Below, piece by piece: positions 7,208-10,200 of a stretch of DNA of 64,000 nucleotides. Source of the stretch: Escherichia coli (GTDB lineage Bacteria; Pseudomonadota; Gammaproteobacteria; Enterobacterales; Enterobacteriaceae); NCBI RefSeq assembly GCF_022846255.1, contig NZ_AP025682.1; one strand, given 5' to 3'. Positions within the stretch are counted from its first letter, which is position 1. Every line of letters begins with the position of its first letter. The position numbers were made by a program.

Positions 7208-10200
7208 TAAGTTCAAATACGGCTAAATACCGTGTGTTCCGCTGAAGTAATACAGAGTGGAACTCACGGTATTTCTATACGCAATAAACAATAACTTTGA
7301 TGTATGTTATTCTATTTAATATATACCATTAATATGTATTAAATAACGATTGATGATAATGTTTTTGGTGTTTTGTTATTTCAAATAATATTAATTTATT
7401 ATGAATTCATTAATATTATTCATGTGATTTATGTTTTATTGCCTCTCTGACAACTCCACGTAAAAATAAATTTTATCATTATCAGCGTGTTATATGTAAG
7501 TATAAACTCACTTATTGCGGCTTTGGATTATTTTAGGTACATTACTAAGCAGCATATATAATATTATTCACTCAATTACTCTTCTAAAGAACCTTCTGGA
7601 ATTAGCCAACGTCAGCTTATTTTTTGTGAGATATAACTTATTAACGCAGAATGTAAAAACACTAATGTTGCTTGGATTTTTTAACAAAAGGAAAGGTATA
7701 AATGAAATTCAATTTATCTAATTTATCCGCAGTATTACTGGCATCAGGTATGCTGATGTCTACTGCGGTAACCGCAGCACCCGGCGATGCAGCACAATTT
7801 GGTGGAGCGGATACTGACTGGAGCACCGTTGATTATCCCAGGCTCACTGATATGGATGACAACGTTGATTCAATGGGGGGGAAAATCCGCTTTACTGGCC
7901 GTGTAGTGAAAGCTACCTGTAAGGTCGCAACCGATTCAAAACAGATTGAAGTTGTCCTGCCGGTTGTGCCTTCCAACCTTTTCACTGGTATCGATGTAGA
8001 AGCACAGGGGGCGAGCAACCAGACCGATTTCAATATTAATCTGACCGAATGTAGCAATACAGAGGATCAGAAAATTGAGTTCCGCTTTACCGGTACCGCA
8101 GATAGCGCTAATAAAACGCTCGCTAACGAAGTAGAAGGATCAACGGATGCTGACAACAGCGGCAATGCGGGGGCGACTGGTGTAGGGATTCGAATTTACT
8201 CCAAAGGTACGACGAATAATGGTCTGATTAACCTGAATACTACTGCGGCAGAGGGTGGCGCCTCCACCGCCGCTTATACAATTCCAGGAAATGCTACGAC
8301 CCATGATTTCAGTGCGGCCTTTACTGCAGGTTATGCTCAAAACGGTAGCACTGTTGCACCAGGTGTAGTTAAGTCAACAGCAAGTTTTGTTGTGCTGTAC
8401 GAGTAAATATAAATACGATTTCAGGTTACAAAAAGTTGTAACCTGAGATTGAAATTATTTAATAGAGTATGAATAACAGGTGTTATTTCATCAACAAGGA
8501 TGCTGTATGAAATGTATTATTGGAAATAAAAAATGGGTTTATGGATTCAGGGATGAATTAAAAGTATCACAAAATATTATACGCTCAGGGATTCTTTTTT
8601 TACTATCGATATTATTTATTAATAATGCGTCCGCGGGCGGGTTTGGCCTTGGCGTAACGCGATTGATTTATCCGGCAGAAAGTAAGCAAATAACACTCAG
8701 TGTGCAAAATAGCGGTGACAACACCAGTTATTTAATTCAATCATGGGTTGATGACAGTAAAACGGAAAAAAAGAGCCAGGATTTTGTTATCACTCCTCCC
8801 CTCTTTATGTTGCCAACGCGTAAAGAAGCTTCATTACGTATCATGTTTCTTGGTAAGACTAATTTGCCGACCGATCGTGAAACTTTGTATTGGATGAATG
8901 TTAAAGCAATTCCGCCAACAGATGAGAAAAATACACAGAAGAATACCTTACAGTTGGCATTACAAAACAAAATCAAGCTATTTTATCGCCCGGAAAATCT
9001 ACCTGTGCAACCAGGAAAAGCACGAAATATGTTGCGGTTTAAGTATGAGGGCAAACAACTAAAAGTTATCAATCCTTCGCCTTATTACCTGACACTGACA
9101 GGAATTAAAGTACAAGGGAGTAAATTGCCCAATATGTTTGTACCACCGAAAAGCGATATTACGGTCTCGTCGCCAGTGACGTTGGCTGGTGAAATTACTT
9201 ATCAAACAATTAATGACTTTGGCGCTACGACGGAGCGGCAGAAAGGAATAATGCAGTAACAACAGAATAGTTCAGATGCAACACAGGTCAGGGATATGAA
9301 CCTAAAGCTCAAAAGATGCGAATATTGGATGGCGGCACAAAAGCAGATGAAACGGGTTGTACCGCTTCTTCTGGTTATTATGCCTGCATGTTCAATCGCG
9401 GGAATGCGCTTTAACCCTGCTTTTCTGTCGGGTGATACTGAAGCTGTTGCTGACTTATCCCGCTTCGAGAAAGGGATGACTTATCTTCCTGGTAGCTATG
9501 AAGTCGAAGTTTGGGTCAATGATTCCCCTTTACTCTCTCGTACTGTAATTTTTAAAGCAGACGATGAGAATCAACTGATTCCCTGCCTTTCACTTGCTGA
9601 CTTATTAAGCCTTGGAATTAACAAAAATGCGCTGCCAGAGCAGGCTTTGGCTTCATCTGAAAATAGTTGCCTTGATTTGCGTATCTGGTTTCCCGATGTG
9701 CATTATATGCCGGAGCTGGATGCACAGAGACTTAAACTGACCTTTCCGCAGGCGATAATAAAACGTGACGCCCGCGGATATATTCCACCAGAACAGTGGG
9801 ATAACGGTATTACAGCTTTTTTGCTGAATTATGACTTTTCTGGTAATAACGATCGTGGTGATTACTCTTCAAATAACTATTATTTAAATCTTCGCGCTGG
9901 GATCAATATTGGTGCATGGCGTTTTCGCGATTATTCAACCTGGAGTCGTGGGAGTAATTCAGCAGGTAAACTGGAGCATATCAGTAGTACGTTGCAGCGC
10001 GTTATTATTCCTTTCAGAAGTGAATTAACGCTAGGAGATACATGGTCATCATCAGATGTTTTCGACAGTGTTAGTATTCGTGGCATAAAACTGGAATCTG
10101 ACGAAAATATGTTGCCCGATAGTCAAAGTGGTTTCGCTCCCACGGTGCGCGGAATTGCGAAAAGTCGCGCTCAGGTAACAATCAAACAGAATGGTTATGT

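What the first reader, a model, noticed from the sequence alone, without database searches (positions are those of the whole stretch)
7274..7701. Extremely AT-rich 430-bp control region upstream of the fimbrial operon
The spacer between the glgP hairpin and the first fimbrial gene is very AT-rich, with many short A/T palindromes such as AATATTAAT ... ATTAATATT around 7390-7420. This is typical of H-NS-silenced, horizontally acquired fimbrial promoters. I found no GATC pairs (Pap-type Dam/Lrp switch) and no obvious invertible-element inverted repeats, so regulation is probably by silencing and anti-silencing rather than classic phase variation.
Basis: partly seen in the sequence, partly recalled or inferred. 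Interest (0 to 1): 0.3.

Follow-up and report, generated by a model that had tools for sequence, protein, structure and literature searches.

The report
AT-rich promoter region of auf fimbriae
This is the very AT-rich regulatory region upstream of the known Auf fimbrial operon of extraintestinal E. coli; published ChIP data show the silencing proteins H-NS and StpA on every gene of this islet, and there is no phase-variation switch, so the finding is correct but ordinary.

Summary
Window 7274-7701 has 25.2% G+C, the lowest 428-bp stretch in the 64-kb window (50.8%). It contains no GATC. It lies between glgP and the first gene of a seven-gene chaperone-usher operon, which is aufABCDEFG of uropathogenic E. 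coli (CFT073 c4214-c4207).

Homology to K-12-type genomes stops 5 bases after the glgP stop codon. The hairpin and the AT-rich spacer are therefore the left end of a ~10-kb, 40.5% G+C islet. About 14% of complete E. coli genomes carry it.

Published CFT073 ChIP-seq lists every gene of the islet as bound by H-NS and StpA. Auf is barely expressed in culture. Overproducing the PapB-family regulator TosR induces it 6- to 100-fold. Silencing with counter-silencing is therefore supported.

Phase variation was tested and not found:
- 0 of 557 genomes carry an inverted segment.
- There are no Dam sites, no recombinase gene and no papI/papB-like gene.
- A poly-T tract (T6-T9) differs between lineages, and the named ST73 strains all carry T9.

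The "many short palindromes" are a composition effect; only one 37-bp palindrome exceeds chance, and it occurs in this allele only. New details are a conserved TATAAT 139 nt upstream of the ATG and a published NsrR site across the ribosome-binding site and start codon.

Verdict: already known, low interest.

The parts
4763..7210 (+). glgP (glycogen phosphorylase), core gene flanking the islet on the left
   Evidence: NCBIfam NF011562, 1850.8 bits over the full length; annotated glgP in matching genomes
7215..17180 (.). auf genomic islet (aufABCDEFG plus three hypothetical genes) between glgP and glpD; G+C 0.405
   Evidence: Similarity to K-12-type genomes stops at query position 65-66, which is window 7214-7215. 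K-12 has yzgL at this position instead. Composition; synteny with strain MS 200-1. The right end is approximate.
7225..7274 (+). Stem-loop immediately after glgP, probably the glgP terminator/insulator carried by the islet; its U-tract is poor (UAUUUCUAUAC)
   Evidence: 19-nt arms, 89% complementary. RNA fold -26.4 kcal/mol, z -4.7. The divergent allele (EC1) keeps the structure (-26.0, z -4.7) with paired changes ACCGUG/CACGGU to GCCGUG/CACGGC. L009 has a canonical terminator at the same place. The terminator scanner did not call it.
7274..7701 (+). AT-rich aufA upstream regulatory region (the finding)
   Evidence: G+C 0.252, the lowest of the window. The divergent alleles keep G+C 0.246-0.259 at only about 59% sequence identity.
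7316..7344 (+). Published in-silico 'putative TosR binding' motif, one mismatch from the CFT073 site; overlaps a 13-nt inverted repeat at 7313-7325/7333-7345
   Evidence: PMC5956150 Table S2 gives TTAATATATACCATTAATATATATTAAAT, 360 bp upstream of aufA. Sequence read; inverted repeat I5. This is a MEME prediction only, and binding was not tested in the paper.
7384..7420 (.). Imperfect 37-bp palindrome AATAATATTAATTTATT-ATG-AATTCATTAATATTATT; function unknown; specific to this allele
   Evidence: 15/17 arm complementarity, reached by 0/500 and 1/300 shuffles. Present in CFT073, MS 200-1 and Rb-23. Absent from the EC1, L008, L009 and Citrobacter upstream regions.
7534..7562 (+). Predicted sigma-70 promoter: -35 TAGGTA (7534-7539), 17-bp spacer, -10 TATAAT (7557-7562); predicted start near 7569, leader of about 133 nt
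   Evidence: This is the only perfect TATAAT in the spacer. It lies in the best-conserved upstream block (7516-7566, 75-85% identity to allele 2 against 59% overall). TATAAT sits 139, 142 and 121 nt before the ATG in this allele, EC1 and L009. Not mapped experimentally; other promoter-like matches score as high.
7620..7625 (+). Poly-T tract, T6 here, polymorphic between lineages (T6 to T9)
   Evidence: T7 in MS 200-1 and T9 in CFT073. In an evenly spaced sample of 60 out of 556 genomes: T9 11, T8 35, T7 2, T6 12. CFT073, Nissle 1917 (two records) and ATCC 25922 all have T9.
7629..7639 (-). NsrR half-site AAGTTATATCT reported for CFT073
   Evidence: PMC5320621 Table 2, 'c4214 (69)'; sequence read
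7693..7715 (.). NsrR 11-1-11 inverted repeat AAGGTATAAAT-G-AAATTCAATTT across the Shine-Dalgarno sequence and the aufA start codon
   Evidence: Identical to the CFT073 site of PMC5320621 Table 4, whose ChIP-seq summit is +3 from the c4214 start at 3.05-fold enrichment. A PWM built from 18 published sites scores it 14.48, second best in the 64 kb; 6.5% of shuffles of the region reach that score.
7702..8406 (+). aufA, major fimbrial subunit (234 aa)
   Evidence: Fimbrial-family hits cover residues ~53-234. 100% identical to an E. coli protein cluster of 812 members; a partial relative is named 'Auf fimbriae major fimbrial subunit AufA'. Size matches c4214 at 705 nt.
8480..14867 (+). aufB (chaperone), aufC (usher), aufD and aufE (minor subunits), aufF (chaperone), aufG (adhesin)
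   Evidence: NCBIfam chaperone, usher, FimF-like and FimH/LpfD-like hits. Gene order and sizes match c4213-c4207.
15041..17129 (+). Three co-oriented hypothetical genes (236, 255, 201 aa; c4206-c4204) at the right end of the islet
   Evidence: ORFs. No Pfam, NCBIfam or PADLOC family. Listed as H-NS/StpA-bound in CFT073.

Best explanation
The segment is the promoter and leader region of the Auf chaperone-usher fimbrial operon. It forms the left edge of a ~10-kb AT-rich islet that sits between glgP and glpD in a minority of E. coli.

Shown: it is the most AT-rich DNA of the window. In strain CFT073, whose spacer differs from this one by about 2%, H-NS and StpA occupy every gene of the islet. The operon is almost silent in culture. 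Overproducing the PapB-family protein TosR switches it on.

Inferred: the 25% G+C spacer is part of, and probably helps nucleate, the H-NS/StpA filament. That filament occludes a weak sigma-70 promoter, predicted as -10 TATAAT at 7557-7562 with a start near 7569. Expression then needs counter-silencing by AT-binding regulators such as TosR, and is helped by 37 C. It does not depend on a heritable ON/OFF DNA switch.

The hairpin at 7225-7274 ends glgP transcription and insulates the operon. NsrR also occupies a site across the ribosome-binding site and start codon in vivo, but no regulatory consequence has been shown.
For: - Identity of the locus: gene content, glgP...glpD synteny; c4207-c4214 names and sizes; about 98% identity to the CFT073 spacer.
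- Composition and islet boundaries.
- H-NS and StpA occupancy of c4204-c4214 in CFT073: PMC9765446 Data set S1 sheet 1E. Several of these genes are still scored as bound in the hns and hns stpA mutants.
- Low expression, higher at 37 C than at 23 C: PMC12890032.
- TosR overexpression raises aufA-G by log2 2.6-6.6, with qPCR giving 5.2 for aufA: PMC5956150.
- Upstream AT-richness is kept at 24.6-25.9% G+C in alleles only about 59% identical.
- Conserved -10 block.
- No switch machinery.
- Many other E. coli chaperone-usher operons are H-NS-repressed, for example yad, shown by an hns deletion in CFT073: PMC13245861.
Against: - The ChIP values are per gene. aufA has the lowest H-NS value of the auf genes (0.24), and no value for the spacer itself was available.
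- No hns or stpA mutant expression data for auf were found, so repression is inferred from binding and low expression.
- The TosR effect may be indirect; the authors say so. Deleting tosR had no effect on aufA.
- The region holds no match to the high-affinity H-NS motif TCGATAAATT at up to 2 mismatches.
- The promoter is predicted, not mapped. Several other promoter-like matches score equally well in this AT-rich DNA.
- The original auf paper (Buckles et al. 2004) could not be read and may contain promoter data.
Confidence: 0.75

Rival explanations
1. NsrR-controlled, nitric-oxide-responsive operon: NsrR bound across the ribosome-binding site and start codon (7693-7715), plus a half-site at 7629-7639, represses auf until NO inactivates NsrR. 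This could act as a second layer under H-NS.
For: - NsrR ChIP-seq peak in CFT073 with its summit +3 from the aufA start, and an 11-1-11 motif identical to the window sequence.
- The motif is the second-best PWM hit in the 64 kb.
- An unrelated ChIP data set gives a peak over the same spot (3999520-3999823) that persists without RfaH and also in hns stpA cells. The list of such RfaH-independent peaks coincides with at least 10 known NsrR sites. Reading this as cross-reaction with NsrR is my inference.
Against: - Enrichment is weak (3.05-fold).
- aufA is not among the 19 NsrR-bound genes that responded to nitrate/NO.
- The site lies about 125-147 nt downstream of the predicted start, which is not a classic operator position.
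- 6.5% of shuffles of this AT-rich region give as good a motif.
- The PWM score collapses in other alleles: 8.5, 7.9 and 5.3. The conservation seen there is explained by the ribosome-binding site and signal-peptide codons.
Confidence: 0.15
2. A dedicated, unidentified dimeric regulator binds the 37-bp palindrome (7384-7420). Related TAATATTA cores lie at 7386, 7411 and 7559, and the last overlaps the -10. Such a regulator would control auf specifically.
For: The palindrome exceeds dinucleotide shuffles (0/500 and 1/300). A 12-nt direct repeat TAATATTATTCA links it to the -10 region at 7411 and 7559. It is kept in four allele-1 genomes.
Against: - It is absent from allele 2, L009 and Citrobacter, which carry the same operon.
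- The 12-nt repeats are only marginal (p about 0.05-0.06).
- The 8-mer copy number is not significant (p 0.09).
- No regulator gene is in the islet; the three extra genes have no DNA-binding family hits.
- The centre of the palindrome varies between strains: TTC, TGC, GTGT.
Confidence: 0.07
3. A phase-variable promoter, working by DNA inversion (fimS-like), by Dam/Lrp methylation (pap-like), or by slipped-strand change of the poly-T tract.
For: - Phase variation is well established for E. coli fimbriae such as fim and pap (my background knowledge).
- A perfect 10-nt inverted repeat (7384-7393 / 7559-7568) brackets 165 bp and touches the -10.
- The poly-T tract at 7620-7625 ranges from T6 to T9 among genomes.
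Against: - 0 of 557 complete genomes show any inverted piece.
- Perfect inverted repeats of this length are within chance for this composition (p 0.064).
- No recombinase gene is adjacent.
- No GATC, no Lrp consensus site and no papI/papB-like gene.
- T-tract length follows lineage: the ST73-type strains all have T9. The tract lies outside the predicted -35/-10 spacer.
Confidence: 0.03

Closest known systems
aufA upstream region of uropathogenic E. coli CFT073 (auf operon, c4214-c4207; Buckles et al. 2004)
   Same: It is the same locus. It has the same glgP...glpD position and the same seven genes plus three hypothetical genes. The spacer is about 98% identical, and the published TosR-motif site and NsrR site are both present.
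   Different: About ten substitutions. One creates a perfect ATGAATTCAT centre in the palindrome, and one falls in the TosR motif. The poly-T tract is T6 here and T9 in CFT073. No complete RefSeq genome is more than 98.5% identical over 7150-7760.
H-NS-silenced 'cryptic' chaperone-usher operons of E. coli (yad, ycb/elf, and others)
   Same: An AT-rich promoter region, very low expression in culture, H-NS occupancy, and induction by environmental or regulatory counter-silencing. yad derepression by more than 100-fold in a CFT073 hns mutant is published (PMC13245861). Auf is phylogenetically close to Ycb (PMC3559732).
   Different: For auf, derepression in an hns mutant has not been reported in anything I could read. 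Auf was the only chaperone-usher system that went down, not up, in human serum.
pap operon regulatory region (Dam/Lrp/PapI phase switch with PapB)
   Same: An AT-rich fimbrial control region, H-NS involvement, and responsiveness to a PapB-family protein (TosR).
   Different: No GATC pair, no Lrp consensus sites, and no divergent papI/papB genes. glgP lies upstream in the same orientation.
fimS invertible promoter of type 1 fimbriae
   Same: The operon is fim-like: major subunit, chaperone, usher, minor subunits and a tip adhesin.
   Different: No flanking recombinase genes, no above-chance inverted repeats bracketing the promoter, and one orientation only in 557 genomes.

Membership tests
H-NS/StpA-silenced horizontally acquired promoter region | A+T content far above the genome average over hundreds of bp | tested here: met
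   G+C 0.252 against 0.508; lowest 428-bp stretch of the window
H-NS/StpA-silenced horizontally acquired promoter region | Lies in accessory DNA missing from many genomes of the species | tested here: met
   557 of 5426 complete genomes carry this allele and about 204 carry a divergent one. Similarity to K-12-type genomes ends at about 7215. Islet G+C 0.405.
H-NS/StpA-silenced horizontally acquired promoter region | H-NS occupancy in vivo | tested here: met
   Looked up rather than measured. In CFT073 ChIP-seq, c4204-c4214 are all in the H-NS-bound gene list, with occupancy 0.24-0.69 (cut-off 0.07) and parallel StpA values (PMC9765446 Data set S1). The values are per gene; the spacer itself is not listed.
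H-NS/StpA-silenced horizontally acquired promoter region | Derepression when hns (and stpA) are deleted | not testable with these tools
   No auf expression data from hns mutants were found in the searchable literature.
H-NS/StpA-silenced horizontally acquired promoter region | High-affinity nucleation motif TCGATAAATT (an auxiliary feature, not obligatory) | tested here: not met
   0 sites with up to 2 mismatches in 7274-7701, against 1.2-1.7 per kb elsewhere
Pap-type Dam/Lrp methylation phase switch | Two GATC sites about 100 bp apart inside Lrp-binding sites | tested here: not met
   No GATC in 7211-7701. No Lrp consensus match at up to 2 mismatches in the spacer.
Pap-type Dam/Lrp methylation phase switch | papI/papB-like regulator genes next to the control region | tested here: not met
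   The upstream neighbour is glgP. Spacer ORFs are at most 68 aa, use non-ATG starts, and the 68-aa one has no Pfam hit.
fimS-type invertible promoter | Both orientations found among sequenced genomes | tested here: not met
   All 557 carriers align in one collinear piece across 7150-7760 and across 7275-7640.
fimS-type invertible promoter | Inverted repeats bracketing the promoter and adjacent tyrosine recombinase genes | tested here: not met
   The longest perfect inverted repeat is 12 nt, reached by 6.4% of shuffles. No recombinase gene lies between glgP and glpD.
Slipped-strand homopolymer phase variation | Tract lies in the promoter spacer or coding sequence and changes length within clones | tested here: not met
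   The T6 tract at 7620-7625 lies 58 nt downstream of the predicted -10. T6 to T9 alleles track lineage, and the named ST73 strains all have T9. Within-culture variation could not be tested.
NsrR regulon operator | 11-1-11 inverted-repeat motif and NsrR occupancy in vivo | tested here: met
   The exact CFT073 site is at 7693-7715, PWM score 14.48, second best in the window. Published ChIP-seq peak at 3.05-fold. A coincident RfaH-independent peak appears in a second data set.
NsrR regulon operator | Target gene responds to NO or to loss of NsrR | tested here: not met
   c4214 is not among the 19 bound genes reported as nitrate/NO-responsive. The promoter was probably silent in that experiment, so this is weak negative evidence.

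The most novel reading that the evidence does not exclude
Beneath the general H-NS/StpA silencing, auf carries allele-specific cis elements that tune expression between ExPEC lineages. These are the NsrR site over the start codon, the 37-bp palindrome, and the lineage-specific T6-T9 tract in the leader. Under this reading Auf would be a nitric-oxide- or host-cue-responsive fimbria whose inducibility differs between clones such as ST73 and ST95.
Probability: 0.12. Interest if true: 0.35.

Novelty: already known. Interest (0 to 1): 0.15.

Why it matters
It matters little beyond annotation. The region is the control region of a described but poorly understood ExPEC fimbrial operon. Genome-wide data already show the islet is coated by H-NS and StpA.

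The practical value is a concrete map for anyone studying Auf regulation. It gives a predicted promoter, the islet boundary at the glgP stop codon, a hairpin insulator, the positions of the published TosR and NsrR motifs, and a lineage-variable poly-T tract. It also gives a clear negative result for inversion, Dam-methylation and slipped-strand switches.

Tried and rejected
- Invertible element: rejected. All 557 genomes are collinear, the inverted repeats are within chance, and there is no recombinase gene.
- Pap-like Dam/Lrp switch: rejected. No GATC, no Lrp consensus site, no papI/papB-like gene.
- Slipped-strand switch at the poly-T tract: length varies from T6 to T9, but by lineage.
- Enrichment of short palindromes: not above shuffles.
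- IHF core consensus: none in the spacer.
- H-NS motif TCGATAAATT: none.
- IUPAC versions of the TosR and NsrR consensus at up to 3 mismatches: no hits, because the real sites are more degenerate. I used the published site strings and a PWM instead.
- Structured RNA: no Rfam family reached threshold (best E-values 0.18 and 0.59). The predicted leader folds no better than shuffles (z +0.43).
- Small ORFs in the spacer: nine ORFs of 20 aa or more overlap it; those inside are 20-68 aa and start with GTG or TTG. The 68-aa one has no Pfam hit; the rest were not screened.
- Relatives in one-genome-per-species contigs: none found with AufA peptide patterns. I used protein clusters and their contigs instead. 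L012, L013 and L014 gave no usable upstream sequence, and L011 is the same as allele 2.
- Alignment of L009 and Citrobacter upstream of about -150 is unreliable: the placement of L009's TATAAT changed. I therefore used only its distance to the ATG.
- Buckles et al. 2004 could not be retrieved.
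Full report
**What is at the coordinates**

Window 4763-7210 encodes glycogen phosphorylase GlgP (NF011562, 1850.8 bits). A seven-gene chaperone-usher operon starts at 7702: a 234-aa major subunit, a chaperone, an 864-aa usher, two minor subunits, a second chaperone and a 376-aa FimH/LpfD-like adhesin. Three family-less ORFs follow, and then glpD on the other strand. This order, the gene sizes and the glgP...glpD position identify the cluster as aufABCDEFG of uropathogenic E. coli (CFT073 c4214-c4207), with c4206-c4204 behind it. 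The spacer is about 98% identical to that of CFT073. The finding is therefore the aufA upstream region.

**Checking the observation**

The 428 bp at 7274-7701 have G+C 0.252 against 0.508 for the window. It is the only trough below 0.30 in 64 kb. The quoted 9-mers are present and are mutually complementary.

There is no GATC between 7211 and 7701. Only about 1.2 would be expected from the composition, so this alone is weak evidence.

The abundance of short palindromes is a composition effect. Counts of perfect 6-, 8- and 10-bp palindromes do not exceed dinucleotide-preserving shuffles. One feature does: the imperfect 37-bp palindrome at 7384-7420, with 15 of 17 arm positions complementary (0/500 and 1/300 shuffles).

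**Where the islet begins**

Genomes without auf match the window only up to about 7215, five bases past the glgP stop codon. K-12 has its own terminator and yzgL at this position. The hairpin at 7225-7274 and the AT-rich spacer are therefore the left end of an islet of about 10 kb, with G+C 0.405 against about 0.53 in the flanks.

- This allele is in 557 of 5426 complete E. coli genomes.
- About 204 more genomes carry a divergent allele (AufA 82% identical) at the same site.
- A still more distant relative (L009, AufA 68%) also sits just after a glgP 3' end.
- Citrobacter freundii has the operon elsewhere in its genome.

The hairpin folds strongly (-26.4 kcal/mol, z -4.7). Allele 2 keeps the structure with paired changes, and L009 has a canonical terminator in the same place. 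I read it as the glgP terminator/insulator brought in with the islet, although its U-tract is poor.

**Comparative anatomy of the spacer**

Allele 1 and allele 2 are only 59% identical across the spacer, yet both keep about 25% G+C. Two blocks stand out.

- 7516-7566 (75-85% identity) contains the only perfect TATAAT of the spacer, at 7557-7562. A weak -35 (TAGGTA) lies 17 bp upstream. A TATAAT lies 139, 142 and 121 nt before the ATG in allele 1, allele 2 and L009. I take this as the most likely promoter, with a start near 7569 and a leader of about 133 nt. It is a prediction: AT-rich DNA throws up several equally scoring matches on both strands.
- 7661-7713 (85-100% identity) covers the ribosome-binding site and the first codons.

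The predicted leader has no above-chance structure, and no Rfam family matched.

The 37-bp palindrome is kept in four allele-1 genomes but is absent from every other allele. Any function would be lineage-specific.

**Phase variation, tested three ways**

- Inversion: every one of the 557 carriers aligns in one collinear piece across the region. The best perfect inverted repeats (12 nt) are within chance. No recombinase gene lies in the islet.
- Dam/Lrp: no GATC, no Lrp consensus site and no papI/papB-like gene.
- Slipped-strand: the T-tract at 7620-7625 is T6 here, T7 in MS 200-1 and T9 in CFT073. An evenly spaced sample of 60 of the 556 matching genomes gave T9 11, T8 35, T7 2 and T6 12. Length follows lineage: CFT073, Nissle 1917 and ATCC 25922 all have T9. 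The tract lies outside the predicted -35/-10 spacer.

None of these supports a heritable ON/OFF switch.

**H-NS**

The decisive evidence is published. ChIP-seq in CFT073 (Hustmyer et al. 2022, PMC9765446, Data set S1 sheet 1E) lists 798 H-NS-bound genes. The list includes c4204, c4205, c4206, c4207, c4208, c4209, c4210, c4212, c4213 and c4214.

- WT H-NS occupancy is 0.24 (aufA) to 0.69 (aufF) on a 0-1 scale with a cut-off of 0.07.
- StpA values are parallel.
- Several of these genes are still scored as bound in the hns and hns stpA mutants.

Expression data fit this. Auf mRNA is very low at both temperatures tested and somewhat higher at 37 C than at 23 C (PMC12890032). Overproducing TosR raises aufA-G by log2 2.6-6.6; TosR belongs to the PapB family, which binds AT-rich DNA and is thought to antagonise H-NS and Lrp. 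The authors call TosR the first regulator linked to auf and leave open whether the effect is direct (PMC5956150). Their MEME-predicted TosR site maps to window 7316-7344 with one mismatch.

What is missing is an hns-mutant expression measurement for auf and a ChIP value for the spacer itself. A scan for the TCGATAAATT nucleation motif found nothing.

**NsrR**

NsrR ChIP-seq in CFT073 (PMC5320621) reports a weak peak (3.05-fold) with its summit +3 from the aufA start. It also reports an 11-1-11 motif that is identical to window 7693-7715, and a half-site at 7629-7639.

A PWM built from 18 other published sites ranks 7693-7715 second in the 64 kb. The top hit is inside aufF, and the paper scored that one ChIP-negative. 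The score is reached by 6.5% of shuffles of this AT-rich region, and it drops in the other alleles.

There is also unplanned support from a second laboratory. The anti-RfaH ChIP peaks that persist in an rfaH deletion (PMC9765446 Data set S2) include 3999520-3999823, over the aufA start. At least ten others of those peaks fall on known NsrR sites: grxD, hycB, folB, hcp, c0118, c0233, c2471, hmp, feoA and ygbA. The aufA peak is also present in hns stpA cells. That this reflects cross-reaction with NsrR is my inference.

aufA was not among the NO/nitrate-responsive NsrR targets. The site lies well downstream of the predicted start. A regulatory role is therefore unproven.

**Verdict**

This is the AT-rich regulatory region upstream of a horizontally acquired, H-NS/StpA-bound fimbrial operon, and it has no classic phase switch. 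The locus and its H-NS occupancy are already in the literature, so this is an ordinary, already-known feature. The residual open points are the mapped start site, direct proof of silencing, and the roles of the NsrR site, the palindrome and the poly-T tract. They are of specialist interest only.

Noticed in passing
window 7693-7715; CFT073 3999520-3999823: In Hustmyer et al. 2022 Data set S2, the anti-RfaH ChIP peaks that persist in the rfaH deletion coincide with NsrR ChIP-seq sites of Mehta et al. 2015 (grxD, hycB, folB, hcp, c0118, c0233, c2471, hmp, feoA, ygbA, aufA). This suggests the antiserum cross-reacts with NsrR, and it incidentally replicates occupancy at the aufA start codon.
   Followed up: partly
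window 15041-17129 (+): Three co-oriented ORFs (236, 255, 201 aa; CFT073 c4206-c4204) lie between aufG and glpD. They have no Pfam, NCBIfam or PADLOC family. They belong to the same H-NS/StpA-bound islet, and their function is unknown.
   Followed up: partly
window 7702-8406 (AufA residues ~25-55): AufA is long for a major subunit at 234 aa. Fimbrial-family models align only from about residue 53-60, leaving an acidic stretch of about 30 residues (…GADTDWSTVDYPRLTDMDDNVDSMGG…) between the signal peptide and the usual N-terminal strand.
   Followed up: no
window 13291-13313 (inside aufF): This is the best NsrR-PWM match of the whole 64-kb window (AAAGTTTATTTATACTGAATGTT, score 15.9). The NsrR paper lists the same site as a predicted but ChIP-negative site (c4208).
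   Followed up: partly
window 7620-7625: The poly-T tract in the aufA leader is polymorphic between E. coli lineages. In a sample of 60 of 556 genomes, about 20% had T6, 3% T7, 58% T8 and 18% T9. ST73-type strains (CFT073, Nissle 1917, ATCC 25922) all have T9, and UTI89 and NRG 857C have T8.
   Followed up: yes
window 7150-7760: No complete RefSeq E. coli genome is more than 98.5% identical to the window across this stretch, although its AufA protein is 100% identical to a common E. coli cluster. The window's spacer allele (T6, with an EcoRI-site centre in the palindrome) is a minority variant.
   Followed up: partly
window 7205-7219 and 7373-7387: The junction sequence at the glgP stop codon (TTGTAAGTTCAAATA) recurs 168 bp downstream at 13/15 identity (TTGTTATTTCAAATA). 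This is probably chance in AT-rich DNA, and I did not test it as a possible insertion scar.
   Followed up: no
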